From the IMG/VR virus record IMGVR_UViG_3300032007_000013: a stretch of 64,000 bases of DNA. One strand, written 5' to 3'. The DNA is from a virus (Duplodnaviria; Heunggongvirae; Uroviricota; Caudoviricetes). The notes below the pieces were generated by a model. It did no database searches, was not told the origin of the DNA, and worked only from the letters and a program-made list of their open reading frames with translations. Positions 22,960 to 62,487 of the stretch are shown here, piece by piece. The first letter of the stretch is position 1. Each line of letters opens with the position of its first letter. The translations under genes were made by a program, and so were the position numbers.

Positions 22960-23493
22960 ATGGCTAAAATGTATCTTCTATGTGGTATGCCGGGAGCGGG
23001 CAAAAGCACTTTCGCAAAAGAATTTGCTGAAAAAAATGGTTATAAATATGTTTCTATTGATGAACGTTATAAGGCTCACAATGGAAGTGAAAGTAATAGA
23101 GAAAATAAGTTTAAAATTTGGCTCGAATTTTATGAATTACTTCATTATTATGAAGTTGTTAATTGTGATATTGTAGTAGACACTAATGCTCCTACCCTTT
23201 TTGACCGCTCTGAATTCCTTAATTGGTTTCCTATTTTTGAACATCATCTTATTTGGATTGATGCTCCTATTGACCTTTGTCTTAAAAATAATAGAAATAG
23301 AGAAAGAGTTATTCCAGAAGATACAATGAAAAAATTATTCCTTAATTTTGAGGAACCTACAATGTTTACTTATACAATGTCTTGCCGGGCTCGTAGTCAG
23401 TGGAAAAGTGTTTCTATGATTAAAAATAATAATAATCATTTTGAAAATAGAATTACTTTATTTGGAAGTTTTCCGAAGGGAGTTAAAATTTAA
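22960..23493 (+). CDS. P-loop kinase (AAA_33 / polynucleotide-kinase-like), 177 aa, no TAG
   Basis: Walker A LLCGMPGAGKST. Small nucleotide/polynucleotide kinase fold. Confidence 0.65.
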   Translation: MAKMYLLCGMPGAGKSTFAKEFAEKNGYKYVSIDERYKAHNGSESNRENKFKIWLEFYELLHYYEVVNCDIVVDTNAPTLFDRSEFLNWFPIFEHHLIWIDAPIDLCLKNNRNRERVIPEDTMKKLFLNFEEPTMFTYTMSCRARSQWKSVSMIKNNNNHFENRITLFGSFPKGVKI

Positions 23494-24062
23494 TGGCACT
23501 TGAAGGCTTATATAAATGCTTTTCTCATTGGGGTAAAGAGGGCGGCACGTGGATTATTTCAGATACCCATTTTGGTGAAGATGACTTAAAACGTGCCTAT
23601 CCTAATCGTCCTGATGATGAAACGCTTCTTAAAATAATTAACCAAAAAGTCGGTAAAACTGGCACGCTCATTCACATTGGTGATGTTGGCGATATTGAAT
23701 TTGCCAAAAGGCTTAAAGGTTATAAAATTCTTATTTGCGGCAATCATGATAAAGGGCCTGAAAACTATGAAGGCATTTTTGATGAGGTATATGCCGGTCC
23801 ACTTCTTATTTCTCCTAAACTTATGCTTTGCCATGAACCTATTAAATATCCTTATGCTTATGTAATTCATGGACACGACCATTCTGGTTCTCATTTTGAA
23901 TACGGGCATATGAATGTTTGTTGTGATGTAATTGGTTATTCTCCTATTAATTTTAATCAATTTCTTAAATCAGGCAAACTTAAAGAGTGTGAAAATATTG
24001 AACGTGAAACGATTGATAAAGCAACGGAACGGGCTCATAAGAAAGGAGGTAAACGTAAATAA
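23493..24062 (+). CDS. calcineurin-like metallophosphoesterase, 189 aa, no TAG
   Basis: Motifs SDTHFG, GDVGD, GNHD, HGHDH. Confidence 0.7.
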   Translation: MALEGLYKCFSHWGKEGGTWIISDTHFGEDDLKRAYPNRPDDETLLKIINQKVGKTGTLIHIGDVGDIEFAKRLKGYKILICGNHDKGPENYEGIFDEVYAGPLLISPKLMLCHEPIKYPYAYVIHGHDHSGSHFEYGHMNVCCDVIGYSPINFNQFLKSGKLKECENIERETIDKATERAHKKGGKRK

Positions 24063-24763
24063 TGTTGACTACAATTCTTTCTATTGGATTTGGAATTGGG
24101 GCATTTTTAATTACTTATTTAGCTAAACTTATTTATCCATATCTCAATATTAAAAATGATAGTAATATTCATATTTATTATAAAAATGCTTATAATAATT
24201 GGTATGGTGAAGGTAAAAATCTTCCTACTTTTACATTTAATAATTTTCTTCAATTTTATAATTTAAATCCAGAAGAATGGCAGATAATGGATACCGATGG
24301 AAAAGTAGTTTTGCCGGGCCGTAAAATAGGACAAAAAGCATATTATGGTTATGAATATGATTATCAACCTATCTTTTTTACAAATATGTTTGAATGTAAA
24401 AAATATCGAGATTGGGCTACTGAAAAAAGAAATGAAATAAAAAAAGAAAAAGATAGTGAAAAGAGAAATAAAGCTACTGAAACTATCCTTAACGCAGTTC
24501 AAGAGGATATTAATAAAGCCCGTAAAGAAAATATAGATATTATTAGTCAAACTGAGAATGATTTAGCAGCAAATTTTAAAAACTTAACTGTAACAGAAAA
24601 GCAGCAATTCATAACTGATGATGGACAAACTATCCAGCAAGAAATGTATTGCGGGATTGCCAGCAACGGACATCATGTTCGAGTAATTCGTTAGTAGCAA
24701 ATTAATCAAGATGGAAGTTTAACAGATTTAGGTATTACATTTTTTGAAAGTAGAAAAGAATAA
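24062..24763 (+). CDS. membrane-anchored hypothetical protein (233 aa), paralog family A (also 24982 and 49860); 2 TAG near the C-terminus
   Basis: N-terminal TM. Shared motif TFNNFLQFYNLNPEEW. Confidence 0.5.
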
Positions 24764-24764
24764 A

Positions 24765-24980
24765 ATGATAAATGAGAAAATAAAAGATATAATTATATGG
24801 CTTGTTAATTTTATATTATTGTTTATTTCTATCATTATTGGTATGGCAATTATTTGTTCTGCTGTTTATTTTCCATTAAAATGGTTAAATTGGAATGGGG
24901 CATACCCGATTACAATATGTATAGGTGTATTATATATAATAATTATGATAATTAAATTAATAGCGGAGGCAATGGAATAA
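24765..24980 (+). CDS. small membrane protein (71 aa)
   Basis: Two TM helices. ATG 24765. Confidence 0.45.
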   Translation: MINEKIKDIIIWLVNFILLFISIIIGMAIICSAVYFPLKWLNWNGAYPITICIGVLYIIIMIIKLIAEAME

Positions 24981-24981
24981 T

Positions 24982-25695
24982 ATGGTTTGGATTTTATTAG
25001 GTATTTTTATTGGTATTCCTACTTTAATTTTAGGTGGGGCTGCGATATCTGTAAAAATTGACGAAATAAAAGAAAAAGATGAAAGACAAAAAAAGCAAGA
25101 TAGAGAAAATGAAGATGTTTATAATCGCATCTTACAGACTACTTATACTGATAAAGTTGCTAATATTAAAGGTGCCGTAAAAGAACTTCCTCAAATGACT
25201 TTTGATCGTTGGTTAACTTTTTATAATACCAATCCTGATAATTGGGATATGGAAAAATTTACGACACATCTTAATTTAGGATACACAGATTATAATTATC
25301 TTATTCCTACTTATTATAAAACTACTAGCCATAAAGGAAAAGATAAAGTAATAGAAAATACCGTAGGTATTCCTATCTTTTGGACGGATTGGCACGAAGC
25401 AGTAAAATTTCATAACTGGTATATTAATGAATATAAAAGAGGTAATGCTGCTGGTTATGAGAAGAAACGTGATGCTTCTATGGAACAGCTTGCCAAATTT
25501 TTACAGGAAGATATCGAGGAGCGTCGTGCTCAGATCTTAAAAGATTATGAAAAAGTAGTTGATCAGACTCAACGAGTAAAGGTTGAGGGTAGTGAGATCA
25601 CTCTAGATTTGAACACTCCTGCTCGTGATAAATCTGGAGAGGAAGAAATTGCTGCCATAATGGATAAACTTTTAGCGACCGGTGGCGGGCATTAA
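24982..25695 (+). CDS. membrane-anchored hypothetical protein (237 aa), paralog family A
   Basis: N-terminal TM. Motif TFDRWLTFYNTNPDNW. Confidence 0.5.
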   Translation: MVWILLGIFIGIPTLILGGAAISVKIDEIKEKDERQKKQDRENEDVYNRILQTTYTDKVANIKGAVKELPQMTFDRWLTFYNTNPDNWDMEKFTTHLNLGYTDYNYLIPTYYKTTSHKGKDKVIENTVGIPIFWTDWHEAVKFHNWYINEYKRGNAAGYEKKRDASMEQLAKFLQEDIEERRAQILKDYEKVVDQTQRVKVEGSEITLDLNTPARDKSGEEEIAAIMDKLLATGGGH

Positions 25696-25774
25696 TATCT
25701 AATTGAAAACTGCTGATTACCATTTTTTTACTAGATAATTGTAAGAAAATTGGTAATCGGCAGTTTCTTTTAAT

Positions 25775-25802
25775 TGAAAATTTTAAAAAAATATTATATA
25801 AT
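25775..25802 (+). promoter_or_regulatory. sigma70-like promoter TTGAAA-N16-TATAAT (family copy)
   Basis: TTGAAA 25775-25780, TATAAT 25797-25802. Confidence 0.55.
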
Positions 25803-25857
25803 ATATATGTAAGTTAAAGAAAAAGATAAATAAATTTTTTATTAGGAGCTGATACTT

Positions 25858-26475
25858 ATGTTTAAATTGAAACCTTCTTTTTTTCCTAAGCTGCATATTG
25901 AAATTGAACGTTGGAAATATCTTGAATCTATGGATGTTTATATTTCTTCTTATGGCCGTTTTAAAGATAAGAATGGAGAATTTCTTTCTGTTGGAGCAAG
26001 AAATAATTATCTTGTTTTCCGTGGAGAATCTGTTCATCGGCTCGTTCTTTCAACTTTTAAACCTGTTCCTGGTTGGGCTGGTTTGACTGTTGATCATCTT
26101 AATCATAATACTCGTGATAATAGAGTTAGCAATCTTGAATGGGTTACTCTTGCTGAAAATACAAGACGTGCTCGTAAAGATGAAAATGACAATACAAAAA
26201 CAATGCTTCAAAAAACGGAAGAAAAGATTAAAGTAACAGAAGAAATTAAAGCGGCGGAAGCAAAAGCTACTACTGCTAATGATGGTGTTTATGTTGTTCT
26301 TAATGGAGTTAAACTTCCCATTGATGCGGCAGGTCAGCTTATGAAGAATGATAAAAGTTTAAGCGTTGATAAAATTAATACTATTATTAAAAATATTAAA
26401 GAAAATGCCAAACGTGATTATGCTTATGGTAATTGGAAAATTAGAGGTATGGAAGCTGGTATTCCCAATAATTAA
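25858..26475 (+). CDS. HNH endonuclease (HNH_3 family), 205 aa, no TAG
   Basis: VHRLVLSTFKP...LTVDHLNHNTRDNRVSNLEWVTLAEN. Confidence 0.7.
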   Translation: MFKLKPSFFPKLHIEIERWKYLESMDVYISSYGRFKDKNGEFLSVGARNNYLVFRGESVHRLVLSTFKPVPGWAGLTVDHLNHNTRDNRVSNLEWVTLAENTRRARKDENDNTKTMLQKTEEKIKVTEEIKAAEAKATTANDGVYVVLNGVKLPIDAAGQLMKNDKSLSVDKINTIIKNIKENAKRDYAYGNWKIRGMEAGIPNN

Positions 26476-26493
26476 TTAAGGAGAAAAAAATAA

Positions 26494-26724
26494 ATGATAA
26501 AGAAACGACTTAATTATGAAACAGTAATTAATCCTAATGAATTTTGTAATGCACCAACGAATGAAGAAATAAAACAATTAATTGAAATTGCCAAACAAAA
26601 TCCTGATTGTATTGTTAGAGTTCATTGGTATGTAAAATATAATGGTTGGTTTGATAGAGCTGTCAGTGCGGATGATACTGTTGAAACTTTTAAAGCAAGA
26701 ATACCAAAAAGCTATGGGTTATGA
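26494..26724 (+). CDS. hypothetical protein (76 aa)
   Basis: ORF with RBS AAGGAG. Confidence 0.45.
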   Translation: MIKKRLNYETVINPNEFCNAPTNEEIKQLIEIAKQNPDCIVRVHWYVKYNGWFDRAVSADDTVETFKARIPKSYGL

Positions 26725-26963
26725 TGAATAAATTATTAAAAGATTTGCGTGACTGTAGTGGTTGCGGTTTTGCCGCTTGCCGTACAGCAATAGAATATTG
26801 CCAAATTCATAAAAATTGCTCTCCATTAGCATATTTAATGATAATGTATAATGGAGTAAAGTATAGTGATATAGATAAAGTAATTGTAGAAGAAACAAAA
26901 AGACTGCTTGATAATCCTCCATATTGGGCTAAAAATACTCAAATTTATGAGGTAATTAAATAA
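26721..26963 (+). CDS. Cys-rich hypothetical protein (80 aa)
   Basis: ORF; CSGCGFAAC motif. Confidence 0.45.
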   Translation: MMNKLLKDLRDCSGCGFAACRTAIEYCQIHKNCSPLAYLMIMYNGVKYSDIDKVIVEETKRLLDNPPYWAKNTQIYEVIK

Positions 26964-27196
26964 TGAAACTTTATAGAGTGCATAATATACCAGAATATAA
27001 CTTTTTGCCTGCATTTGTTGAAGTATTATTTGCTGAAAATGAAGAGCAAGCAGAAATAATTTATAAAGAATATGCGAAAAGATTCTGTGATGATTATTCT
27101 GATGATGGTGATCGTATTCGCATTGATGAACTTAAAATTGCCCCAGGAGTTTTTAGAAATTATTCTATATACTATATTCCAGATATAGATGATTAA
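26963..27196 (+). CDS. hypothetical protein (77 aa)
   Basis: ORF. Confidence 0.4.
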   Translation: MKLYRVHNIPEYNFLPAFVEVLFAENEEQAEIIYKEYAKRFCDDYSDDGDRIRIDELKIAPGVFRNYSIYYIPDIDD

Positions 27197-27337
27197 ATAT
27201 GAAAAGGAGTGATAAAATATGCTAAATAAAGATGGAGTTCGCGAGCTAGCTTAAAATTATAGGACAGATTTCGTTAATAAAATTTATTTAACTTCTATAT
27301 ATAATAGAAAAAAATATAGAAGGAGATACTTATTAAT

Positions 27338-28324
27338 ATGGCAAAAGCGATAGATTTAACTAATTAGGATTTTGGATATTTACATGTAATAGAAAGAGAT
27401 TATGAAATTTAGAAACAACATCCAAATGAAAGATAGGCTTGGTGGAAATGTGAATGCAAAGCCTGTGGAAAAATAAAATCTTTTAGAAGTTCTGTTATTA
27501 AAAAATCTAAATCTTGTGGTTGTGTAAAAAATTATGGACCATTAACTGAAAAAGCAAAAAATCATCTTAAAGAAATGGCTCAAAATAATAGTTTAAATTT
27601 AGTTGGTCAACGTTTTTCTCATTTGCTTGTTTTATCCTATGCTCCAGAAGAAAAATAGATTTATTATAATGGCAAACATAGACGGACTTGGCTATGTTAG
27701 TGTGATTGTGGCAATCAATGTTATGTAACGACAGAAAATTTAAGACGAGGAGATACTCGCTCTTGTGGCTGTATTACTCGTGAAAATAGAAGAAAACAAT
27801 TAAAAGATTTATCTGGATAGAGATTTGGCCATTTATTAGTATTAAATTATATTGGAACAATTAATGGAAATACTAAATATAAAGTTAAATGTGATTGTGG
27901 AAAAGAATATGAAATTTTTGCGAGTAATTTAACTCAAGGCTGCACTACTAGTTGTGGTTGTGTAAAAGAATCTCATGGAGAAAATAAAATTCATGAAATT
28001 TTAACTCAAAATAATATATTATTTATTAATTAGAAAGTTTTTCCAAATTTTAAATTTAGTGATACAAAAGGAACGCCAAAATTTGATTTTTATTTGCCAA
28101 CATTAAATACTTGTATTGAATATGATGGAGAACAACATTTTTCAAAAGTATTTAATTTTGATACAGACGAAGATTTCTAGAAGAGAAAATTTCATGACTT
28201 TGAGAAAAATTAGTATTGTTTAAATAATAATATAATTTTAATTAGAATTCCATATACACAATATACTTTTTTAAATATAAAAGATTTATTACCAGAAACA
28301 TCAAATTTTATTATTAAGGAGTGA
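27338..28324 (+). CDS. zinc-ribbon-repeat / DUF559-like endonuclease family protein (328 aa), ~10 in-frame TAG
   Basis: Three LxGQRFGHLLVL...WLCQCDCGN...SCGC repeats, then ...KFDFYLPTLNTCIEYDGEQHF...LIRIPY. TGA stop 28322-28324. Confidence 0.65.
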
Positions 28325-28330
28325 TTTTTA

Positions 28331-29584
28331 ATGTTAGATTCAACTGGGACTCGGCAACTCGCATATGTTGTTCTTGTTGATGGAATTGAACCTATTCCTG
28401 GATATGACAGAGTAGAACATGCTCTTATTGGTGGTTGGCGAGTAATTGTACAGAAGGACCAGTTTAAAGTTGGTGATCCCGCAATTTATTTTGAGATTGA
28501 TAGCCGTGTTCCGAATGATAAAGAATGTTTTGCTTTTCTTGAAAAGCGTAATTATAAGGTTAAGACCTTAAAAATGTGTAAGACTATTTCTCAGGGGCTT
28601 CTTATGCACGCAAGTGATTTCGGCTGGAAAGCTTGTCGGGCTATGGGTCCGCCTTTTGATGAACCTGCCTGTATTATTGACGATAAAAATCATTGTTATT
28701 ACGTCGATGATGAATCTCGTTTCTTAACTTCTATTCTTGGTGTAACTTATGCTGATGATGAAGATAATGCTCGTAAAGCTAAGGATATTGACCCTAATGC
28801 TAAATATCTTTCTATGAAGGCACGTCATAAGAGATTTTTTAATAATAAGTTTGTAAAGAAAATGTGGAAGTATCCTTGGTTTAGAAAATTTTGCTTTTTC
28901 TTTATGGGAAAGAAGAAAGATAAGCCTCGTGGGTTTCCTACCAAATTTCCTTTCGTGCATAAAAGTGATGAAGAGAGAGTTGAAAATATGCCATTTATCC
29001 TTAAAGATAAAGAACCTTGGGTTAAAACTCAAAAAATTGATGGAACTAGTTCAACCTATATTCTTGAACGAACTGGGAAAAATAAATTTGAAGAGTATGT
29101 ATGTTCTCGTAATGTACGGCAATTAACTCCTTCACAAAAAAATTATCATACTGATATTGAAGGAAATGTATATTGGATGATGGCAGATAAATATAAGATT
29201 TTTGATTTTCTTAAATCTTATCTTATTGAGAATAATCTTGATTATGTTTGTCTTCAGGGTGAAACTGCTGGACCTTCTTTACAGGGTAATCCTCATAAAT
29301 TTAAAGAGATTCGTTTCTTTGGTTATAATTTTATTCGTTCTGATACTGGGCGAATGAATAGTATTGAAGCCGCAAAAATTTGTAATATGGCAGGTATTCC
29401 TTGGGTTCCTATTGTTGATGAAGCATATATTCTCCCTGATGATATGGAGACTCTTAAACTTGACGCTGATGGTCCTTGTATTGTTGGAGAAGGGCCTCGT
29501 GAAGGTTGGGTTTATCGTAGTCTTGATGGTCAGCGTTCTTTTAAAAATGTAAGTAGAGAATATTTACTTCATTTTCATCAATAA
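28331..29584 (+). CDS. ATP-dependent RNA ligase (Rnl-family nucleotidyltransferase), 417 aa, no TAG, GC-richer
   Basis: Motif I KIDGTSS (KxDG) with downstream ligase-like motifs. RBS AAGGAGTG. Confidence 0.65.
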   Translation: MLDSTGTRQLAYVVLVDGIEPIPGYDRVEHALIGGWRVIVQKDQFKVGDPAIYFEIDSRVPNDKECFAFLEKRNYKVKTLKMCKTISQGLLMHASDFGWKACRAMGPPFDEPACIIDDKNHCYYVDDESRFLTSILGVTYADDEDNARKAKDIDPNAKYLSMKARHKRFFNNKFVKKMWKYPWFRKFCFFFMGKKKDKPRGFPTKFPFVHKSDEERVENMPFILKDKEPWVKTQKIDGTSSTYILERTGKNKFEEYVCSRNVRQLTPSQKNYHTDIEGNVYWMMADKYKIFDFLKSYLIENNLDYVCLQGETAGPSLQGNPHKFKEIRFFGYNFIRSDTGRMNSIEAAKICNMAGIPWVPIVDEAYILPDDMETLKLDADGPCIVGEGPREGWVYRSLDGQRSFKNVSREYLLHFHQ

Positions 29585-29676
29585 TAAATATTCTTTGGAC
29601 ACAACCTTGAAATAATATTATCTTATTTTTTATATATAATAGAATTAAATAATATTATTTCAAGGAGTTTTTAAAT

Positions 29677-30669
29677 ATGCCAAAAAAAATTGATTTAACA
29701 AATTAGATATTTGGAGAATGGTTAGTATTACGAGAAGCTACAAAAAATGAAAAATAGAATAAGCCTGGAAGTTACTGGTTATGTAGATGTTCATGTGGCA
29801 CAGAGAAAATTGTTAATGGACAGTCATTAAGAGAACATTAGAGTAATTCTTGTGGCTGTCAAACTGCTAAATATCTTAGTATTTCTCATAAAAATAAAAA
29901 TTGTATAGATATTTCTGGGCAACGTTTTGGTAAATTAATAGTTTTAAATAGAGACTATTAGGCAGAATAGTAGCATAAAAATAGTCATAATACATACTGG
30001 CTATGTCAATGTGATTGCGGGAATAAAATTAGTGTTATGAAAAGTTCTTTAACTATGGGAAAAACAATTTCTTGTGGATGCTATAGAAAAGAAATTGCTA
30101 GTAAAAATTTATCATAGATAAGCTCTAATAATTATGTTGATGAAACAAATAACAAATATGGAAAATTAATGGTTTTATATAAATCAAATATAAAACATCC
30201 AACAAGAGAAGGAGCTATTTGGCATTGTAAATGTGACTGTGGTAATGAATGCGATGTATTTGGGGCAGATTTAAGACAAGGTATTGTTACATCTTGTGGA
30301 TGTTTAGGTAAATCAAAAGGTGAATATAATATTGAACAATTATTAAAAAATGATAATATTTGTTATTCAAAAGAATATTCAGTAAAAATAAATAATATTT
30401 ATTATAGATTTGATTTTGCTATTTTTTTAGATAATTAGTTATTATATTTTATAGAATTTGATGGAAAATAGCATTATGAGCCATGCATTTTATTTGATAA
30501 TGAAATAGGACTTTTAAAAACACAAGAAAGAGATTAGCTAAAAAATCAATGGTGTAAAGATAATAATATTCCATTAATTCGTATTCCATATTGGCATTTA
30601 CAAGATTTATGTATAGAAGATTTATCATTAGAAACAAGTAAATTTATTGTAGGAGTAAAATATGAGTAA
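29677..30669 (+). CDS. zinc-ribbon-repeat / DUF559-like endonuclease family protein (330 aa), ~12 in-frame TAG
   Basis: MPKKIDLTNQIFGEWLVL...YWLCRCSCGTEK...SCGC x3, then YRFDFAIFLDNQLLYFIEFDGKQHY...LIRIPY. Confidence 0.65.
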
Positions 30670-30958: not shown

Positions 30959-31131
30959 ACCAGTATGTTAAATTATTTGGCAGTTCTAGCAATGATACGT
31001 TAACCGATGAAATTAATACTTTTTTAAAAGAAAATAATTGTAAAATTATTTCTACACAATTAGCAATGAGTTCTAGCTTTCCAAATTATAAAACTATATT
31101 AATCGTTTGTGAGGAGATTGAAGAATGTTAA
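30955..31131 (+). CDS. small hypothetical protein (58 aa)
   Basis: ATG 30955 to TAA 31129-31131. Confidence 0.35.
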   Translation: MNQYVKLFGSSSNDTLTDEINTFLKENNCKIISTQLAMSSSFPNYKTILIVCEEIEEC

Positions 31132-31430: not shown

Positions 31431-31456
31431 TATATAATAAAGGAGAAAATTAAATA

Positions 31457-32347: not shown

Positions 32348-32352
32348 ATATA

Positions 32353-54903: not shown

Positions 54904-55188
54904 AATAATTTAAAGAAATTGTATAAAATACATAAGAGAGGAAGTGGTTTTTATTCTCAAATATGTATTTTTAGGAATAAGCCTATATGTTCTAATCATT
55001 CCAATTTTAGAATCATTATCTGCCTTAATTTGCCAAGGTATCGAAGTCCTTAAAGGAAAACTTGTTTATTAGCAAGCAATACTCCAATAGCAAGTCGATG
55101 AAATTAGAGCTAGACCATCCTCAGGCTCTACTCATGCGATAGGTTTTACGATACCGGCAGAAAGTGAATATTATGAGGAGGAAGAAGA

Positions 55189-56415
55189 ATGAAATTTTAT
55201 GACACTAGTTCCTTACTATTAAAAGCTGGAACGCTTTTTGATGAAAACGAAGAAAAATTCGCTATTTCATCTATAACATTAAAAGAACTTGAAGAAATAA
55301 AAACTTCTTTTAATAAAGATGCTAATATCAAATATGTTGCTCGTTAGCTACTTCATCTTTTAGATGAACATGATGGAGAATATGAAATTAGTATTTATAA
55401 AGAATCAATGCTACAAAGAATTATTGAAAATGATTTACCAATTACTAATGATATGAAAATATTAGCATCAGCATTAGATTATGACATTTTTGTTACTAAT
55501 GATTTAGCTCTAAAAAAAATAGCTCAAATCTTTTTTGATTCTAATAAAATTGAAAGTATTGGAGAAGATTTTGATAATAATTATACAGGCTATCTTGAAG
55601 TCGTGATGGATGACTCATAGATGGAAGATTTTTATTCTAATTTAAATAAAAATACTTTAAAAGCATTAATTAATCAATATATTATTATTAAAGATATAAA
55701 TGGAATTATCGTAGATAAACGAGTATGGACTGGCGAAACATATCGAAATATTAGTTTTGAAAACTTTAATTCCAACGAATTAGGTTCTATTCGTCCTATG
55801 CCAGGAGATGCCTAGTAGTAGTTTGTGGCAGATAGTTTATGCCACAATAAAATAACGGTTGTGCGTGGGCCGGCAGGGTCTGGTAAATCATAGTTATCTC
55901 TTGGTTGTTTATTCTGGCTATTAGAAAGACGTAAAATTGAGAAAATTATTATCTTTTGTAATACAGTCGCCGCAAAAGGAGCTGCTAGACTAGGATTTTT
56001 GCCTGGTACAAGAGAAGAAAAGTTATTAGATAGCCAGATAGGAAATTTCTTAATAAGTAAATTAGGCGATCGAATAGAAGTAGAAAGATTAATTGATGAT
56101 AATAAATTATTATTATTACCAATGGCAGATATTCGTGGATATGATACAACGAGTATGAATGCAGGTATATATATAACAGAAGCCTAGAATTTAGATCGAG
56201 ATTTGATGAAATTAGCACTTCAACGCATAGGAGAAGATTGTATTTGTATCATTGATGGAGATGAAAAAACTCAAGTAGATGATGTAGCTTTTGCTGGAGC
56301 AAATAATGGTATGCGTAGAATGTCAAAAGTATTCCGTGGACACGATGTTTATGGAGAAATTGAATTAAAGAAAATCTATCGTTCTAAAATAGCTGAAATC
56401 GCTGAAAATATTTAA
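55189..56415 (+). CDS. phoH: PhoH-family ATPase with N-terminal PIN-like domain, 408 aa, 6 in-frame TAG
   Basis: VVRGPAGSGKSQ Walker A, ...EAQNLD..., C-terminal KH-like region. Four standard-code fragments are all in one frame. Confidence 0.7.
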
Positions 56416-56418
56416 GAG

Positions 56419-56447
56419 ACTGATTTTTATCAGTCTCTTTTTTTATA
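56419..56447 (+). terminator. rho-independent terminator
   Basis: GAGACTGATTTTTATCAGTCTC followed by a T-run. Confidence 0.7.
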
Positions 56448-56468
56448 GTCAAGAAAGGAGGAAAACAT

Positions 56469-58928
56469 ATGACAGTACAAGAACAATTATGGCAATACTT
56501 TATTAAAAAAGGTTTTACTCCACAATCTATTGCTGGCATTATGGGCAACATAGATGAAGAAAGTAAATTTTAGCCAAATGCTGTATAGAAAAATAATTTA
56601 TATACAAATGCTTCATATACCAATATGGTAGATACTGGTATATATAATAATTTTGTTCATGATGATTTAGGATATGGTTTAGTCCAATGGACTTATGATG
56701 TTTTTAAACAAGATTTGTATAATAGATGTAAAGCGGCAAATAAATCAATCGCTGATTTAAACTGCCAACTTAATTAGATGTATGCTCATTTATAGAGTGA
56801 AGGATTATTAAATCAAATGAAAAATTTTACTTCTATAAAAGAAGCAACTATTTTTTATATGTTAAAATTTGAAAAACCATAGGATTAGAGCGATGATGCT
56901 CAAAATAAAAGAGTTGAAGCAGCTCAAAAATGGTTTAATATATTTAATAAAAATAAATAGCAACAATAGGGAGGTAAAAAAATGAAATATTCTCAATCAA
57001 ATCCTCCAATAGTATGTATGATGACAGATTCTACTTGCTATCAATCAACAAACTAGATGCAAGTAAAAGGAGTCCTCTGGCATAGCACTGGGGCAAATAA
57101 TAAAACAATTAAAAGATATGTACAGCCAACCGAGGGAGATCCTAATTATGCCTATTTAATGAATTTAATTGGAAAAAATACTGGGGCAAATGATTGGAAC
57201 CATATATCAGTACAAGCTGGATTAAATGCCTGGATCGGCACTTTAGCAGATGGGACAGTTGCTTCTGTCTAGACTATGCCATGGGACTATAAACCTTGGG
57301 GATGCGGTTCTGGCAGTAAAGGTAGCTGTAATAATGGTTGGATTCAATTTGAAATTTGTGAAGATAATCTCACTGATGGGGTTTATTTTTAGAAAGTTTA
57401 TCAAGAAGCTTGTGAATTAACAGCTTATCTATGCAAATTATATAATATAAATCCTCTTGGTAATGTTCTTTTTAATGGTACAGTAGTTCCTACAATTTTA
57501 TGCCATCAAGATAGCTGTCAATTAGGATTAGGAACAAACCATAGTGATGTATATCATTGGTTCAATAAATATGGTAAAACTATGGATAGTGTTCGTAAAG
57601 ATGTAGCAAATTTATTAGGAATTAATATTAATGCTAATTCTCCAATTACTAATCAAAACAATGATGATGTTCCCGCTATGATGTTAAAACGAGGAATGAA
57701 AAATAATCCTCAAATCAATTTATTACAAGAAAAATTAATTGAACTTGGATACAATTTAGGACCATTAGGTGCTGATGGTAATTTTGGTCAAATGACAGAA
57801 ATGGCTGTTAAAACTTTCCAATAGAAAAATGGATTAACTCCTAATGGAATATTTGGTGTTGAAACATTTTTAGCTATGAAAAAAGCACTAGAAATGAAAA
57901 ATTCTATTGTAGCTCCATTAATTAATAAAGAAGAAATTTATAGAGTCCGTAAAGCATGGAATCAACCAGGGACACAAGTTGGAGCCTATAAAAATTTAAA
58001 TAATGCAAAAGAAACAGTTGATAAATTACCTGCTGGATATCATGTATATGATAGTAATGGTTCAGAAGTTTATCCAATAGTCTCTTCTGCTGTTACAAAT
58101 AATCAAACTTCTAATAGTAGTGTCGCCGTAAATCTTCCAGTAGCAAAAACTTACTCTGGTGTAAAACTAGCATCTTCTTCAAAAGACGAGAATGGTAGAT
58201 ATACTGGTGGATAGCGTGGTGACCAAACTGGAAAAGAAGTATATATTTTAGACTGGTATCGTAGTGCATGGAATTATGTATTAAGACCAAAAACTCAAAG
58301 ATTGGCTGAAAATATTGCTCGTGCGGCTGAGGCAGGGTGTGCTAATGACAATATTGGTTATAGCCAAGGAGCTAGAAATACATTATATATAGAAGCTCAA
58401 AAAGTAGGATTAGATTTATCAAAAATAACAACTCCTTGTGATTGTGATTGTAGTTCATTTGTCAGTATTTGCTGTATTTGTGCTGGTTTATCTCCAAGCA
58501 TTTTTTATGCTGATGGAAATATGAGAACTACCTATAATATGAAATAGGCATGCGAAGCAACCGGATAGTTTTTAGTATTATCCGGCAATCAATATACTGG
58601 TCAAAAAGATTATTTAAAACGTGGAGATATTTTACTTAATTCTAATTCTCATGTAACTATTGTTCTTTCTAATGGAGATTGTGTAGAAGATTTAACAAGT
58701 TAGTTTGAGACTTCAACAACTCAACCTATTGTTAGCGGAACTAGTTATACTGTTCAAATTACAGTACCATTTTTAAATATTCGATTAAATCCTAATCCTG
58801 ATGGAAAAATAGTTGGACAAGTTAAATATAATCAAGTATTTACTATTGTCCAAGAGGAAGGAGGATACGGTAAACTTAAATCTGGTGTTGGCTGGATAGA
58901 TTTAAGATATACCAGAAAAATGTCATGA
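56469..58928 (+). CDS. multi-domain peptidoglycan hydrolase (lysin), ~819 aa, ~17 in-frame TAG: N-terminal lysozyme-like, amidase-like, PG-binding, and C-terminal Cys-peptidase/SH3-like regions
   Basis: QSIAGIMGNIDEES (tail-lysozyme-like), VKGVLWHSTGANNK...WNHISVQAG (amidase-like), LGPLGADGNFGQMTEMAVKTFQ (PG_binding_1), C-terminal Cys-rich catalytic-like region. Ends by ATGA overlap with a putative holin. Confidence 0.6.
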
Positions 58929-59200
58929 AAGGAAAACATAGTAAAAAATTAGAATTTTCAAAAACATTATTAATCCAAGAGTCAATATTAATTTGGATTC
59001 ATACTCTTTCAATGCTAGTCTTAGCTTATATTTGCGTTTTTCGCGGTTATTTCGCAGAATTACCTTGGCTTACCGCTATGGTAACTTTGCCATGGGGAGC
59101 CTATGCAGTCAGTCAACGAGCATATTATAAGAAATCAGAAGCTGAAAATACCCAAGGTGGTATTAAATTTGAAACAGTAATGTCTGATTATAGAGAATAG
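58925..59200 (+). CDS. putative holin (91 aa, two TM helices)
   Basis: Translationally coupled to the lysin. Hydrophobic helices, then a charged C-terminus. Confidence 0.45.
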   Translation: MKGKHSKKLEFSKTLLIQESILIWIHTLSMLVLAYICVFRGYFAELPWLTAMVTLPWGAYAVSQRAYYKKSEAENTQGGIKFETVMSDYRE

Positions 59201-59238
59201 ACTGACCCTTATCTTTTTAACGACTCTGCTGTTGGATA

Positions 59239-59285
59239 ATTTTTATTGAAAAACCAAGATAATATAATTTTTTTATATTATCTTG
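59239..59285 (+). terminator. rho-independent terminator
   Basis: AAACCAAGATAATATAATTTTTTTATATTATCTTGGTTT followed by a T-run. Confidence 0.7.
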
Positions 59286-59415: not shown

Positions 59416-59862
59416 ATGAGAACATACTATACAGATGGTTCTGCCACAGGAAATGGTACTGAAAATTCTATTGGTGGTTTTGGAATCGTTGAAGTAGATG
59501 AAAATGATAATATTCTTTGGGAATACCAAGAAAATGGTTTAAAATATGAAACAAATAATTCTATGGAATTGACTGCTATTTTGTATGCCTTAAAACATAT
59601 AGAAGTTGAAGAAGCGTCTTTTATGAAACCAATTATTTATAGTGATAGTGCTTATTGTGTAAATCTTATAAATGATTGGATGTATAGTTGGGAACGAAAT
59701 GGATGGAAACGTCCTAAAAATCAAGAGGTTAAAAATTTAAATCTTATTAAACAAATTTTTGAATTAGCTGATTTAGCAGAAATAAGAAAAGTAAAAGGAC
59801 ATGCTAGCAATAAATGGAATGAATATGCAGATAAATTAGCGACAGGAGTATATAAAATATAA
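59416..59862 (+). CDS. rnhA: ribonuclease H (RNase HI), 148 aa
   Basis: YTDGS, TNNSMEL, YSDSAY, ...H..N..AD catalytic motifs. Confidence 0.75.
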   Translation: MRTYYTDGSATGNGTENSIGGFGIVEVDENDNILWEYQENGLKYETNNSMELTAILYALKHIEVEEASFMKPIIYSDSAYCVNLINDWMYSWERNGWKRPKNQEVKNLNLIKQIFELADLAEIRKVKGHASNKWNEYADKLATGVYKI

Positions 59863-60146
59863 TGAAAATTGACTTTTTACCAATAAATATTTATGTTCAT
59901 CGTAATGAAAAATTTTTTGCTAAAATACAATGGTTTTTATATAAACATTTTGATATGAAAAGAACTATTCCTTGCGGACAAACTAAAAAAAATAAATATT
60001 TATGGTGTGCTCAACCAACTGATGAAGAGCATTGCTATTATAGTAAAGAAGATAGAACAGAAGTCAGGTGTAAATGCTGTAATCAATTAAAAATAATGAG
60101 TAATCAACCTATTGACTTAAAAAAAATTTATGAAGAAGGCTTTTAA
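59862..60146 (+). CDS. Cys-rich small protein (94 aa)
   Basis: ORF. Confidence 0.4.
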   Translation: MKIDFLPINIYVHRNEKFFAKIQWFLYKHFDMKRTIPCGQTKKNKYLWCAQPTDEEHCYYSKEDRTEVRCKCCNQLKIMSNQPIDLKKIYEEGF

Positions 60147-60147
60147 C

Positions 60148-60176
60148 TTGACTTTAATTAAAAAATATGATATAAT
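60148..60176 (+). promoter_or_regulatory. sigma70-like promoter TTGACT-N17-TATAAT
   Basis: TTGACT 60148-60153, TATAAT 60171-60176. Confidence 0.5.
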
Positions 60177-60209
60177 ATAATATAAAAAAATTAAAATAGG
60201 AGAAATCTT

Positions 60210-60572
60210 ATGTTGAATGAATTATTAAGACGATGTTGGGCATGTCCAGTATGTGGGCGTATCCTATATCGTCCTTTAAAAGGTTATTGGTGTCCATTTT
60301 GTGGGCATAATTTATCTGCTGATGAATAGGAAGATAATTTAGATTTATCAACAAGAATTACTGCTCGTGATGAAAATGGAGTACCATATTATTGTGGAGA
60401 AAGAGGATTTAGACAAAGAACATATGCTCATGATATGGATGTAAATATTGTCGCAGAAATATTAGAAAAACTTTGTCAATATGAAGAAATTGAAGTTGAA
60501 AATGATAAAATTATTAATAAAATAATTGAATCAGGAAATAATGAAATAGAGGTAATAGAGGATGAAGGATAA
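60210..60572 (+). CDS. zinc-ribbon hypothetical protein (120 aa), 1 in-frame TAG
   Basis: CWACPVCG...CPFCG. TAA stop 60570-60572. Confidence 0.45.
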
Positions 60573-62487
60573 AACTTTATATACAGAAGAAAGTATCGAA
60601 TCTTTATCTCCATTGGCGTTTACTCGTTTAAGACCAGGAGTATACGCAGGTGATACGACATATGCTACACAATTGGCTGTCGAAATTTTTTCTAATGCTG
60701 TTGATGAATTTCGTCTTGGACATGGAGATAAGATTGATGTAGATATTAAAGGGCCAAGAGTAAGAATACGAGATTATGGGCAAGGTTTTATCCCTAATAG
60801 TTTTCGTGATGATGGAAAAACAATTCTTGAAGCAGCATTTAGTGTTTTAAATACTTCTGGTAAGTATCGTGAAGATGGTACCTATGAAGGTACTTCATTG
60901 GGTTCTTTTGGTATTGGTTCAAAGATTACAACTTATCTTTCACATTGGCTAGATGCTACTACTTTCCGAGATGGAGAATGGGAAACTGTCCATTTTGTAG
61001 AAGGTGAAACTTATAGCCATGATGGAGGAAAAATTAATCCTGCTGATATGGGAATTAGTACAGATACTACTGGCACAATAGTTGAATGGGAACCAAGTGA
61101 AGAATTTTTTACGCATCCAGGAGTAAATGTAAATGAATTAAAAACTTTATTTAAAACAATAGCTGCTTTATGTCCTGGATTAACTATTAATTTAGATGAT
61201 AATGGTAGTAAAACAACTTATTTTTCTAAAAACGGTATTAGTGATTTAGTTGATGAAGCAGTTGAAGGAAAAGAATTAATTAAAAATCGTTTTGTTATGA
61301 ATTATCAAAATGATAAAAATAAAATTGATATGGTTATGACATATACATCTAACTATTCAATGAATTTAATTCCTTATGTTAATACAGGTTTAACAGCAAA
61401 TGGCCCGCATATCTCACAGATTAAATCTCTTTTAACTCGTGAATTTAATAAATTTTTCCGTGATAAAAAATGGTTAAAGGAAAAAGAAGAAAATCTTTCT
61501 GGTGAAGATATACAAGAAGGACTTTATATTGTATTTAATATTACTGCTCCAAATGTAGCATATGACGCTCAGGTAAAGACAAGAGTCACTAAATTAGAAA
61601 TGACTCCTTTCACTTCAGCAATCGCAGAAGAACTTCGTATCTGGTTTATGGCAAATGAAAAAGATATTAAAATGATTGCTGACAAAGCATTAGGTGCTCG
61701 TAAAGCAAGACTGGCAGCTCAAAAAGCAAGAGATAATGCACGTGAAGGCCAGAAGAAGAAAGAGAAAGCTTTAAAATTTGATAGTAAATTAGCTGATTGT
61801 TATAGTAAAGATCGCAAGAAGTGCGAAATTTACATTACAGAGGGCGATAGTGCAAGTGGTAAATTAAAAGAAGCCAGAGACAATGAATTTCAAGCAATTA
61901 TGCCAGTCCGAGGTAAGATTTTAAATACTCAAAAAGCAACTATTGATAAAATACAGAAAAATGCGGAAATTATGTCAATGATTCAAGCTTTTGGTCTTGA
62001 AATTGATTTAAAAACAATGAAAGTGACATATCATCCAGATAAAATTCGATATGGGAAAATTATTATTATGAGTGATGCTGATGTTGATGGTGCTCATATT
62101 AAAAATTTGTTTTATACTTTTATTTGGAATTTCTGTCCTCAATTAATTCAAGATGGTTATATCTATGCTGGTGTCCCGCCACTTTATAAAGTTACAATGG
62201 CTAAAAAATATTATTATTTAAAGAATAATAATGCTTTAGAAGAATTTCGTAAGAAAAATGCTGGTAGGAATTACATTGTAAATCGTATGAAAGGTTTGGG
62301 TGAAATGGATGCTGAAGAAGTTGAAGAAACTTTAATTAGCCCAGAAGGTAGAATTATTCGTCAAGTTACTGTAAATGATATTCCAACTACTAATAAATTA
62401 TTTGATGATTTGATGGGCACAGCTGTAGTTCCACGTAAATTATATATTAAAGAACATAGTAAAGAGGCTACTTACAATGCAGAGTAA
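60562..62487 (+). CDS. type IIA DNA topoisomerase, ATPase/Toprim subunit (GyrB/ParE-like, T4 gp39-like), 641 aa
   Basis: GHKL ATPase N-terminus and Toprim motif EGDSASGKLKEARD. Confidence 0.75.
   Translation: MKDKTLYTEESIESLSPLAFTRLRPGVYAGDTTYATQLAVEIFSNAVDEFRLGHGDKIDVDIKGPRVRIRDYGQGFIPNSFRDDGKTILEAAFSVLNTSGKYREDGTYEGTSLGSFGIGSKITTYLSHWLDATTFRDGEWETVHFVEGETYSHDGGKINPADMGISTDTTGTIVEWEPSEEFFTHPGVNVNELKTLFKTIAALCPGLTINLDDNGSKTTYFSKNGISDLVDEAVEGKELIKNRFVMNYQNDKNKIDMVMTYTSNYSMNLIPYVNTGLTANGPHISQIKSLLTREFNKFFRDKKWLKEKEENLSGEDIQEGLYIVFNITAPNVAYDAQVKTRVTKLEMTPFTSAIAEELRIWFMANEKDIKMIADKALGARKARLAAQKARDNAREGQKKKEKALKFDSKLADCYSKDRKKCEIYITEGDSASGKLKEARDNEFQAIMPVRGKILNTQKATIDKIQKNAEIMSMIQAFGLEIDLKTMKVTYHPDKIRYGKIIIMSDADVDGAHIKNLFYTFIWNFCPQLIQDGYIYAGVPPLYKVTMAKKYYYLKNNNALEEFRKKNAGRNYIVNRMKGLGEMDAEEVEETLISPEGRIIRQVTVNDIPTTNKLFDDLMGTAVVPRKLYIKEHSKEATYNAE

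What the first reader, a model, noticed from the sequence alone, without database searches (positions are those of the whole stretch)
22960..62487. Sharp partition into TAG-free and TAG-rich genes, which looks like a built-in expression timer
One set of genes contains no in-frame TAG at all: kinases and phosphoesterases 22960-24062, RNA ligase 28331-29584, Thg1-like 35283-36071, the NTase 36535-37377, the TROVE/vWA-like gene 6912-8411, PurA-like 48685-49854, topoisomerase II 60562 onward, and RNase H. The tail fiber, lysin, rSAM/GT8 cluster, homing-endonuclease-like genes, PhoH, permease and most small structural genes carry one TAG roughly every 20-60 codons. TAG-rich genes cannot be translated until the suppressor tRNA (2637-2711) is functional, so amber density could gate late and lysis functions. 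This has been proposed for code-15 phages and is unusually clear-cut here.
Basis: partly seen in the sequence, partly recalled or inferred. Interest (0 to 1): 0.7.

Follow-up and report, generated by a model that had tools for sequence, protein, structure and literature searches.

The report
TAG-free versus TAG-using phage genes
This uncultivated large phage reads the stop codon TAG as glutamine but keeps about 60% of its genes free of TAG; the split is real and conserved, but it is a further example of a pattern already described for recoded gut phages.

Summary
With TAG read as sense, ORFs cover 89% of the window, against 65% under the standard code. A tRNA(CUA) lies at 2638-2707. Of 61 genes of at least 100 aa, 33 have no in-frame TAG, or 35 after curation. 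Only 9.6 are expected, and the maximum in 20,000 simulations was 20.

GC content does not explain the split. It holds in every GC3 stratum, and the GC correlation disappears once homing endonuclease genes and one AT-rich island are removed.

The split is conserved. In 31 TAG-recoded IMG/VR loci, 207 of 218 orthologs of TAG-free genes are also TAG-free, and both full-length lysin orthologs are TAG-rich.

TAG-free genes form long blocks. Each block follows a near-identical TTGAAA-N17-TATAAT element, and one of these elements also precedes the suppressor tRNA.

TAG-using genes carry TAG at about the frequency that base composition predicts. What is shown is therefore purifying selection against TAG in one gene class. 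Selection for TAG as a gate is not shown, and timing cannot be tested from sequence.

The functional split is imperfect. dUTPase, RuvC, PhoH and a permease carry TAG, and one HNH gene does not.

Borges et al. already proposed this model, including the endonuclease case. I rate it a new member of a known kind, of modest interest.

The parts
2638..2707 (+). Suppressor tRNA, anticodon CTA. It resembles the tRNA-Gln(CTG) of the window.
   Evidence: ARAGORN and Rfam tRNA at 34 bits both find it. It shares the acceptor stem and G73 with tRNA-Gln(CTG) at 1272-1345. It has a C1xU72 mismatch, and every CTA tRNA examined in related loci has a 1:72 mismatch, most with G73. It lies 45 nt downstream of TAG-free ORF 2240-2593, which follows promoter-like site 2168-2196.
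615..1345 (+). tRNA-Gln(TTG) at 615-688 and tRNA-Gln(CTG) at 1272-1345.
22960..37377 (+). TAG-free block 1. It holds 22 genes with no TAG and one gene (31457-32347) with a single TAG. Members include kinase, phosphoesterase, HNH, RNA ligase, NADAR, DUF5662, Thg1-like and RlaP nucleotidyltransferase. Three TAG-rich endonuclease genes interrupt it.
   Evidence: The single TAG in 31457-32347 aligns with Gln in a 96%-identical ortholog.
41956..54030 (+). TAG-free block 2. It holds 21 genes with no TAG and one gene (50808-50993) with a single TAG. Members include a SLOG protein, three metallophosphoesterases, four paralogous membrane proteins, PurA-like and a kinase. Endonuclease-like gene 43594-44349 (3 TAG) interrupts it.
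59416..64000 (+). TAG-free replication block: RNase H, GyrB-like and GyrA-like. Small ORF 60210-60572 carries one TAG that is conserved in orthologs.
   Evidence: In code-15 loci the orthologs are TAG-free in 25/27 (RNase H), 26/27 (GyrB-like) and 24/27 (GyrA-like) cases.
6912..8411 (+). TAG-free DUF2828/DUF7788 vWA gene. It has GC 0.43, and all 17 of its Gln codons are CAG.
   Evidence: Its atypical composition makes recent acquisition possible for this one gene.
8519..22708 (.). TAG-using block on both strands: dUTPase (2 TAG), RuvC (8), unknown structural-region proteins, holin 14503-14934 (1), permease (3) and the tail-fibre-like protein 17780-22708 (13). Six small genes in it (69-139 aa) are TAG-free, which is compatible with chance at this density.
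37469..41954 (+). TAG-using, very AT-rich island (GC 0.19-0.23): a small ORF, rSAM-SPASM (10 TAG), two GT8 glycosyltransferases (4 and 9) and ORF 41553 (3).
54415..59239 (+). TAG-using lysis-associated block: two small ORFs (2 and 2 TAG), PIN-PhoH (7), an 819-aa multidomain lysin (16) and a small transmembrane protein (1).
   Evidence: The order PhoH, lysin, TM protein, RNase H, topoisomerase is conserved in the three loci mapped in detail, and the lysin there carries 5-9 TAG.
27338..30669 (+). Two TAG-rich paralogous endonuclease-like genes (27338-28324 with 9 TAG, 29677-30669 with 10 TAG). They flank the TAG-free RNA ligase. Other endonuclease-like genes are 2800-3528 (HNH-like, 8), 6147-6875 (6), 34435-35265 (GIY-YIG/NUMOD, 6) and 43594-44349 (3).
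   Evidence: Homologs in code-15 loci are never TAG-free (0/6, 0/6, 0/3, 0/6).
22899..22927 (+). Example of the near-identical TTGAAA-N17-TATAAT promoter-like element. Exact-pattern copies are at 2168, 4374, 22899, 25774, 33862, 40914, 46242, 48424 and 50574. Degenerate copies lie near 32384 and 44390.
   Evidence: The general pattern gives 14 matches against 1.5 expected, all on the + strand, and the extended core agrees. The first ORF downstream is TAG-free at 11 of 11 TTGAAA-type sites. At TTGAC- or TTTGAT-type sites it is TAG-free at 1 of 6 (Fisher p = 0.001). Including related loci the counts are 23/27 against 7/30, but these are not independent.
24692..24697 (+). Tandem TAG TAG at the end of the conserved body of gene 24062.
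   Evidence: The 80%-identical ortholog in L004 has TAA TAA at exactly this position, and the downstream sequence is homologous.

Best explanation
The window comes from a large uncultivated phage. The closest contig found is 240 kb. The phage decodes TAG as glutamine with its own tRNA(CUA).

Its genes fall into two classes.

Class 1 holds about 60% of genes: RNA-repair and nucleotide enzymes, topoisomerase II, RNase H and many small ORFs. These genes sit in long co-oriented blocks behind a nearly invariant sigma-70-like TTGAAA-N17-TATAAT element. Purifying selection keeps them free of TAG, presumably because the unmodified host machinery must translate them while release factor 1 still terminates at TAG. 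The suppressor tRNA lies behind one of the same elements.

Class 2 holds the tail-fibre/holin block, the PhoH-lysin block, an AT-rich rSAM/GT8 island and free-standing homing endonuclease genes inserted into class-1 blocks. These genes tolerate TAG and carry it at about the compositional expectation. Full-length class-2 products can therefore appear only once enough suppressor tRNA has accumulated. That gives a translational delay, or safety catch, on late, lytic and nuclease genes.

Shown here: the recoding, the partition, its independence from GC, its conservation, and its association with blocks and a promoter subclass. Inferred: that class 1 is early, that class 2 is delayed, and that the delay is functionally used.
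For: - Coding coverage is 0.65 under code 11 and 0.89 with TAG as sense.
- A tRNA(CUA) is present and resembles tRNA-Gln(CTG).
- Window TAG positions align most often with Gln (71) or TAG (52) out of 377 aligned positions in code-15 loci, and with Gln (21 of 75) in standard-code loci.
- 33 of 61 genes are TAG-free against 9.6 expected.
- The excess is significant within each of four GC3 strata (p = 1e-3 to 1e-7).
- It persists, with rho about 0 against GC, after the endonuclease genes and the AT-rich island are removed (35 against 15.6 expected).
- Orthologs of TAG-free genes are TAG-free in 207 of 218 cases in 31 code-15 loci. Orthologs of TAG-using genes are TAG-free in 31 of 106.
- In the three loci mapped in detail the lysin is TAG-rich (5-9 TAG) and sits beside topoisomerase genes that are TAG-free in two of them.
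- TAG status clusters along the genome: 28 runs against 41 expected once the endonuclease genes are set aside, p = 0.0015.
- TTGAAA-type promoter-like sites precede TAG-free first ORFs at 11 of 11 sites, and one precedes the suppressor tRNA.
- The published model matches.
Against: - There is no expression or proteomic evidence for this phage or its relatives, and the literature search found no time course.
- Both promoter subclasses look like host sigma-70 promoters, so neither can be called early or late.
- The TAG share in class 2 (0.39) is no higher than the off-frame (0.43) or mononucleotide (0.47) expectation, and the lysin is at 0.29. Nothing indicates selection for TAG.
- PhoH switches class among related loci.
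- dUTPase and RuvC are usually not late genes, yet they carry TAG. An HNH gene and a tail-protein-like gene do not.
- The host, and therefore its genetic code, is unknown.
Confidence: 0.6

Rival explanations
1. The partition is a by-product and not a regulator. It only records which genes must be translatable before suppression is available (TAG forbidden) and which need not be (TAG permitted). In the permitted genes TAG accumulates neutrally through CAG-to-TAG mutation in an AT-rich genome. Timing is set by transcription, and the amber codons gate nothing that is not already gated.
For: The in-frame TAG share in TAG-using genes (0.39) matches the compositional background (0.43-0.47). The base after TAG has the same distribution as the base after CAA. 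TAG positions are spread evenly along genes. PhoH drifts between the two states among code-15 loci. The lysin is not preferentially recoded here.
Against: TAG-rich endonuclease genes sit inside otherwise TAG-free, co-oriented blocks. Several TAG-containing first ORFs follow consensus sigma-70-like sites. For these genes transcription alone would not obviously delay expression. This rival also shares its key premise with the main model: there is an early phase without suppression.
Confidence: 0.25
2. The partition reflects composition or gene age. TAG-free genes are GC-richer recent acquisitions from standard-code organisms that have not yet had time to gain TAG.
For: TAG-free genes are slightly GC-richer (median 0.317 against 0.279) and use more CAG (36% against 13% of CAA+CAG). 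The vWA gene 6912-8411 has GC 0.43 and uses only CAG. TAG density correlates with GC overall (rho = -0.41).
Against: The excess of TAG-free genes is significant in every GC3 stratum. The GC correlation vanishes (rho = -0.007) once 11 endonuclease and island genes are removed, yet the partition remains. Orthologs at about 35-95% protein identity in 31 code-15 loci stay TAG-free (207/218). That shows long residence under selection, not recent arrival.
Confidence: 0.05
3. The amber codons serve as a containment device for toxic or selfish genes, and temporal control is secondary. They keep nucleases (HNH, GIY-YIG, RuvC, PIN-PhoH) and lysis proteins from being made in any cell that lacks the phage tRNA. 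Examples are leaky or host-forced expression, or after transfer to another genome.
For: The highest TAG shares are in the endonuclease genes (0.50-0.60, except 43594-44349 at 0.27), RuvC (0.62) and PIN-PhoH (0.54). Endonuclease homologs in code-15 loci are never TAG-free. Borges et al. raise protection against host-forced premature lysis.
Against: Non-toxic genes (permease, glycosyltransferases, dUTPase, tail fibre) also carry TAG. One HNH endonuclease gene is TAG-free. The shares rest on 10-20 codons per gene and do not differ significantly from the background.
Confidence: 0.1

Closest known systems
Stop-codon-recoded gut phages with a mixed-code genome (Borges et al., bioRxiv 10.1101/2021.08.26.457843: Lak, crAss-like, Garnet and Amethyst for TAG; Jade, Sapphire, Agate and Topaz for TGA)
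   Same: The phage encodes its own suppressor tRNA. Only part of the gene set uses the recoded stop (26-71% of genes in their clades, about 37-39% of ORFs here). Replication genes remain standard-code compatible, and structural and lysis genes are recoded. Their example of an endonuclease gene inside an early gene carrying in-frame stops matches the endonuclease genes here. The proposed mechanism, translational delay of late and lytic genes, is the same.
   Different: Membership of any of their named clades was not tested. No release factor or aminoacyl-tRNA synthetase 'code-change module' is present in this window. The lysin is not preferentially biased towards TAG here. The TAG-free class is dominated by an unusually large RNA-repair gene set.
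Block-wise dual-coded crAss-like genomes as modelled by Mgcod (bioRxiv 10.1101/2022.06.29.495998)
   Same: The genome divides into blocks that are either compatible with the standard code or need a reassigned stop codon. Here there are three large TAG-free blocks and three TAG-using blocks.
   Different: Here single TAG-rich endonuclease genes are also embedded inside TAG-free blocks. The TAG-using block at 8.5-22.7 kb runs on both strands.
phAss-1 / proposed Phassvirus group (PMC10607447)
   Same: These are large gut phages with TAG read as Gln, tRNA(CTA) genes, and TAG present or absent in PhoH, holin, dUTPase and NADAR genes depending on the genome. The same variability is seen for PhoH among the related loci here.
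   Different: Homology to phAss-1 was not tested. Megablast of window 40000-64000 found no near-identical DNA in the phage collection, and tblastn with the GyrB-like protein found only hits of at most 37% protein identity.
Translational restriction of homing endonucleases in phage T4 (I-TevI made only late because early transcripts sequester its ribosome-binding site; from my own knowledge, not checked here)
   Same: A selfish endonuclease gene embedded in early-transcribed DNA is kept untranslated until late by a post-transcriptional device.
   Different: The device here would be in-frame amber codons plus a phage suppressor tRNA, not mRNA structure. This is an analogy only.

Membership tests
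Code-15 (TAG to Gln) recoded phage with a mixed-code genome | In-frame TAG interrupts conserved genes, and coding density rises when TAG is read as sense | tested here: met
   ORF coverage is 0.646 (code 11), 0.888 (TAG sense) and 0.682 (TGA sense). Pfam domains extend across TAG positions in the lysin, PhoH, RuvC, rSAM, GT8 and permease genes.
Code-15 (TAG to Gln) recoded phage with a mixed-code genome | Phage-encoded suppressor tRNA with anticodon CUA | tested here: met
   The tRNA lies at 2638-2707. CTA tRNAs also occur in many related tRNA arrays.
Code-15 (TAG to Gln) recoded phage with a mixed-code genome | TAG corresponds to glutamine | tested here: met
   Gln is the commonest residue aligned to window TAG codons: 71 of 377 positions in code-15 loci, plus 52 TAG, and 21 of 75 in standard-code loci. 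These counts are dominated by a few gene families. The suppressor shares its acceptor stem and G73 with tRNA-Gln(CTG). The base after TAG has the same distribution as after CAA. There is no proteomic proof.
Code-15 (TAG to Gln) recoded phage with a mixed-code genome | A subset of genes, including replication genes, stays compatible with the standard code | tested here: met
   35 of 61 genes of at least 100 aa are TAG-free, including topoisomerase II and RNase H. The same holds in related loci.
Code-15 (TAG to Gln) recoded phage with a mixed-code genome | Recoded codons are concentrated or preferentially used in structural and lysis genes | tested here: inconclusive
   The tail-fibre-like protein, holin, lysin and TM protein all contain TAG. 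So do dUTPase, RuvC, PhoH, the permease and rSAM/GT8. The lysin's TAG share (0.29) is below the class mean of 0.39.
Code-15 (TAG to Gln) recoded phage with a mixed-code genome | The host uses the standard code | not testable with these tools
   The host is unknown. No prophage or CRISPR link was sought.
Code-15 (TAG to Gln) recoded phage with a mixed-code genome | TAG-free genes are expressed before TAG-containing genes (temporal switch) | not testable with these tools
   No expression data exist. The only indirect evidence is the promoter-subclass association.
Free-standing homing endonuclease genes | A recognisable homing-endonuclease nuclease domain | tested here: met
   Two genes pass Pfam's curated cutoffs: 25858-26475 (HNH_3, E = 2e-10) and 34435-35265 (GIY-YIG with NUMOD1 and I-HmuI-like domains). 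The HNH_3 match of 2800-3528 is weak and below the cutoff (21.8 against 24.8 bits). The four-member paralog family (6147, 27338, 29677, 43594) has only DUF2726 matches near the cutoff, or none (27338), so its nuclease nature is inconclusive.
Free-standing homing endonuclease genes | Presence/absence polymorphism at the same site between related genomes | not tested
   This was not examined systematically.

The most novel reading that the evidence does not exclude
In this genome one codon may have a time-dependent double meaning that the phage exploits in two ways.

1. TAG would still act as a genuine stop for early-class genes. The tandem TAG TAG at 24692-24697 replaces the TAA TAA of the ortholog. 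Later read-through would add a 21-residue extension.
2. TAG would act as a translational insulator for selfish endonuclease and nuclease genes inserted in early, sigma-70-driven operons.

The large TAG-free RNA-repair set (RNA ligase, two kinase/phosphoesterase pairs, Thg1-like, RlaP) might take part in making phage tRNAs functional. This could include the tRNA-like gene at 3604-3725, which has a 49-nt insertion in its anticodon loop and could yield a CUA anticodon.
Probability: 0.15. Interest if true: 0.65.

Novelty: new member of a known kind. Interest (0 to 1): 0.3.

Why it matters
The window gives a clean, statistically solid and evolutionarily replicated example of a mixed-code phage from a lineage with no annotated close relative. 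It sharpens what sequence data can and cannot show. There is clear purifying selection against TAG in one class of genes. There is no sign of selection for TAG in the other class.

It also supplies concrete material for experiments on the code-switch hypothesis:
- a near-invariant promoter-like element that marks TAG-free operons and the suppressor tRNA;
- TAG-rich endonuclease genes embedded in TAG-free operons;
- a conserved PhoH, lysin, TM protein, RNase H, topoisomerase junction where TAG status flips within a few hundred bases.

It does not change current understanding.

Tried and rejected
1. Megablast of 24 kb against the annotated phage collection found no match. tblastn with the GyrB-like protein found only distant hits of at most 37% identity. 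No annotation could be borrowed.

2. I looked for HDV-like or theta ribozymes next to the tRNAs, which have been proposed as triggers of the code switch. Rfam gave no such hit in 1-6500 even at E up to 5. This is a weak negative, because minimal ribozymes are hard to detect.

3. I tested TATATAATAGAA as a candidate late promoter. It occurs exactly upstream of three endonuclease genes from two families, but it is absent upstream of TAG-rich genes in code-15 loci. It is not established as a promoter class.

4. I tested whether TAG is used as a stop codon in early-class genes. Among non-redundant cases where a longer ORF continues past an ortholog's C-terminus, TAG (8) is no commoner in TAG-free bodies than other one-step neighbours of stop codons (Fisher p = 1.0). 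The TAG TAG case remains anecdotal.

5. I looked for positional bias of TAG towards the 5' end of genes, which a gate might favour. The distribution is uniform (KS p = 0.14). There is a slight excess in the last 12 codons (14 against 8.6 expected).

6. I looked for a special nucleotide context after TAG. It does not differ from the context after CAA.

7. I searched for homologs of the intron-containing tRNA-like gene at 3604-3725. None turned up in the 84 fetched loci or by an exact scan of IMG/VR.

8. PHROGs added only a holin (14503-14934) and a tail-protein-like match (17031-17366). The 1642-aa protein matches no family, so I call it tail-fibre-like from its composition alone.

Full report
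**Gene map and recoding**

I called ORFs with only TAA and TGA as stops. This gave 110 ORFs of at least 40 aa covering 93% of the window. I curated them to 97 by dropping antisense, low-complexity or tRNA-overlapping ORFs and by fixing the PurA-like start.

Greedy ORF coverage is 0.646 under the standard code, 0.888 with TAG as sense and 0.682 with TGA as sense. ARAGORN and Rfam both find a tRNA with anticodon CTA at 2638-2707, close to tRNA-Gln(TTG) and tRNA-Gln(CTG).

The CTA tRNA shares its acceptor stem and G73 with tRNA-Gln(CTG). It has a 1:72 mismatch, as does every CTA tRNA examined in related contigs, most of them with G73.

In alignments to related loci, the residue most often opposite a window TAG is Gln. 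In recoded loci it is Gln at 71 of 377 positions, plus TAG at 52. In standard-code loci it is Gln at 21 of 75. The other frequent residues (K, Y, L, E) are one-step mutational neighbours of TAG. These counts are dominated by a few gene families, so they are supportive and not proof. The base following TAG has the same distribution as the base following CAA. TAG read as Gln (code 15) is therefore well supported.

**The partition is real**

The 97 ORFs hold 176 in-frame TAGs in 18,624 codons. Of 61 genes of at least 100 aa, 33 have none. A uniform rate predicts 9.6, and the maximum in 20,000 simulations was 20. If TAG were a random share of Gln-type codons, 13.1 would be expected (maximum 25). 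The overdispersion chi-square is 357 on 96 df.

Two further genes join the TAG-free class after curation:
- In 24062-24763 the only TAGs are a tandem TAG TAG exactly where the 80%-identical ortholog has TAA TAA.
- In 53638-54030 the TAG lies upstream of the conserved start.

The curated distribution for genes of at least 100 aa is: 35 with no TAG, 4 with one, 7 with two or three, and 15 with four or more.

PHROGs adds a holin at 14503-14934.

**Not a GC or gene-age effect**

TAG-free genes are only slightly GC-richer (median 0.317 against 0.279). The excess of TAG-free genes is significant within each of four GC3 strata (p from 1e-3 to 1e-7).

The overall negative correlation of TAG density with GC (rho = -0.41) is caused entirely by the endonuclease-like genes and one very AT-rich island (37469-41954, GC 0.19-0.23). 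Without those 11 genes rho is -0.007, and the partition persists: 35 TAG-free against 15.6 expected, maximum 26.

Only the vWA gene 6912-8411 (GC 0.43, all 17 Gln codons CAG) looks compositionally foreign.

**Conservation**

Two IMG/VR scans returned 41 related loci. By the gain in coding density, 31 of the 40 loci long enough to score use TAG as sense and 9 use the standard code.

In the recoded loci, orthologs of window TAG-free genes are TAG-free in 207 of 218 cases. Examples are Thg1-like 12/12, kinase 18/18, phosphoesterase 19/19, GyrB-like 26/27 and RNase H 25/27. Orthologs of TAG-using genes are TAG-free in 31 of 106 cases.

The order PhoH, lysin, small TM protein, RNase H, GyrB-like, GyrA-like is conserved in the three loci mapped in detail. 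The lysin there carries 5-9 TAG, and the adjacent topoisomerase genes are TAG-free in two of the three; in L025 GyrB-like carries 4 TAG and RNase H carries 7. PhoH is TAG-free in 16 of 28 recoded loci, so its status is not fixed.

At about 35-95% protein identity, this conservation implies long-term purifying selection against TAG in one gene class.

**Organisation**

Once the six endonuclease-like genes are set aside, TAG status is clustered: 28 runs against 41 expected, p = 0.0015.
- The large TAG-free blocks are 22960-37377, 41956-54030 and 59416 to the end of the window.
- The TAG-using blocks are 8519-22708, 37469-41954 and 54415-59239.
- The small TAG-free genes inside the first TAG-using block are compatible with chance.

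A sigma-70-like pattern, TTGAMW-N16-18-TATAAT, occurs 14 times against 1.5 expected, always on the + strand. A subset shares an almost invariant extended sequence, TTGAAA(A/T)TTTTAAAAAAATATTATATAATAT.

At 11 of 11 TTGAAA-type sites in the window, the first downstream ORF is TAG-free. At TTGAC- or TTTGAT-type sites this is so at 1 of 6 (Fisher p = 0.001). Including related loci the counts are 23/27 against 7/30, though orthologous sites are not independent.

One TTGAAA site (2168) precedes the TAG-free ORF 2240-2593, which is followed within 45 nt by the suppressor tRNA. Homologs of that ORF sit inside tRNA arrays in 43 IMG/VR contigs. Both subclasses look like host-type promoters, so the sequence does not say which is early.

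**What kind of selection is shown**

In TAG-using genes, TAG makes up 39% of TAG+CAA+CAG. In the same genes the off-frame share is 43%, and the mononucleotide expectation is 47%. In TAG-free genes the in-frame share is about 0, against an off-frame share of 46%.

TAG positions are uniform along genes. The lysin's share is 0.29, below the class mean. The highest shares (0.50-0.62) are in most of the endonuclease-like genes, RuvC and PIN-PhoH, but each rests on only 10-20 codons.

The data therefore show that TAG is forbidden in one class and merely permitted in the other. They do not show that TAG density has been raised to act as a gate.

**Function does not split cleanly**

TAG-using genes include dUTPase, RuvC, PIN-PhoH, a xanthine/uracil-type permease and an rSAM-SPASM plus two-GT8 island, as well as the tail-fibre-like protein, holin, lysin and endonuclease genes. 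TAG-free genes include one HNH endonuclease (25858-26475) and a tail-protein-like ORF. The better predictor of TAG status is the block or transcription unit, not the functional label.

**Literature**

Borges et al. (bioRxiv 10.1101/2021.08.26.457843) already describe the following:
- partial use of recoded stops (26-71% of genes, depending on clade);
- standard-code replication genes;
- recoded structural and lysis genes;
- an intron endonuclease in an early gene whose in-frame stops should delay its production;
- the model that early standard-code genes and a suppressor tRNA switch the cell to the alternative code.

Mgcod describes the block structure of such genomes. The phAss-1 paper reports gene-by-gene variability of TAG use, including PhoH, holin, dUTPase and NADAR. 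A search for time-course evidence found none, so the timer remains a hypothesis in the literature as well.

**Mechanism and rivals**

My best reading (confidence 0.6) has three parts. Class-1 genes must be translated while host release factor 1 still terminates at TAG. The suppressor tRNA is made from the same type of promoter. Class-2 proteins become full-length only once that tRNA has accumulated.

- The main rival (0.25) accepts the early no-suppression phase but treats the TAG content of class 2 as neutral drift with no regulatory role. The compositional result favours this rival. The TAG-rich endonuclease genes embedded in TAG-free operons argue against it.
- A composition or gene-age explanation is essentially excluded (0.05).
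- A containment role for toxic or selfish genes is possible (0.1) but rests on small numbers.

**Dead ends**

The following led nowhere: the ribozyme search, a candidate late-promoter motif, a test for TAG acting as a stop in early genes, and a search for homologs of an intron-bearing tRNA-like gene. Details are in the section on what was tried and rejected.

**Verdict**

The feature is a new member of a known kind, and I score its interest at 0.3.

Noticed in passing
window 4910-4944 and 5322-5372: A tRNA-Leu(UAA) gene is split by an insertion of about 377 nt between anticodon nucleotides 34 and 35. This is the classical site of the cyanobacterial and plastid tRNA-Leu group I intron. The two exons match intact tRNA-Leu(taa) genes of related loci. 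Rfam gives no group I intron hit at E up to 5.
   Followed up: partly
window 3604-3725: A tRNA-like gene (Rfam tRNA, 35 bits) carries a 49-nt insertion in its anticodon loop, too short for a group I intron. Its acceptor stem (U1xU72 mismatch, G73, CCA) resembles the Gln and suppressor tRNAs of related loci. The junction is ambiguous, so the spliced anticodon could be CAA, CUG or CUA. No homolog turned up in 84 loci or in an exact IMG/VR scan. The phage also encodes RNA ligase and kinase/phosphatase genes.
   Followed up: partly
window 4819-4890; L042 7755-7826: A tRNA with an 8-nt anticodon loop (ARAGORN reports anticodon 'tgtt') is conserved in the closest related contig. More distant related loci carry a similar 'taaa' tRNA in their arrays.
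   Followed up: no
window 24692-24697; L004 about 7031: A tandem TAG TAG sits exactly where the 80%-identical ortholog has TAA TAA, and the downstream sequence is homologous. Either TAG still terminates this early-class gene, or the product has gained a 21-aa extension. A general test for TAG acting as a stop was not significant.
   Followed up: yes
window 2638-2707 and the CTA tRNAs in L042, L043, L055, L062-L066, L069, L072, L083: Every suppressor tRNA(CTA) examined has a mismatched 1:72 pair (CxU, UxU, UxC or AxC), and most have G73. The ordinary tRNA-Gln genes of the window have A1-U72. This may compensate for the altered anticodon in Gln charging. That reading is my inference.
   Followed up: partly
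window 2240-2593; L042-L084: A 117-aa TAG-free ORF with no Pfam match is conserved inside the tRNA arrays of 43 IMG/VR contigs. In most of them a tRNA follows within about 100 nt, often Ser(TGA) and then a CTA tRNA.
   Followed up: partly
window 22960-24062, 28331-29584, 32578-33738, 35283-37377, 41956-43501, 50998-53693: The window holds an unusually large RNA-repair and nucleotide-signalling gene set, all TAG-free. It comprises two AAA_33 kinase plus metallophosphoesterase pairs, two further metallophosphoesterases, RNA ligase, a Thg1-like protein, RlaP nucleotidyltransferase, NADAR, DUF5662 and a SLOG (YAcAr) protein.
   Followed up: no
window 37469-40917: A very AT-rich island (GC 0.19-0.21) holds a 76-aa ORF, an rSAM-SPASM enzyme and two GT8 glycosyltransferases. 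It could be a peptide-modification cluster. No orthologs occur in the fetched loci.
   Followed up: no
window 2760, 27298, 29633 (and 34399, with two mismatches to the motif): The exact motif TATATAATAGAA lies 30-40 nt upstream of endonuclease-like genes from different families. It is not found upstream of genes in code-15 loci.
   Followed up: yes
window 44687-46215: Four tandem paralogous genes encode small membrane proteins of 122-134 aa. All are TAG-free, and two or three homologs were found in code-15 loci.
   Followed up: no
window 1345-2160 and about 520-557: A GC-richer stretch of about 800 nt after tRNA-Gln(CTG) has no convincing ORF. A sequence resembling the 3' half of a tRNA (GGTTCAAGTCCGATTATGTCAGCCA) lies upstream of tRNA-Gln(TTG). 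Neither was analysed.
   Followed up: no
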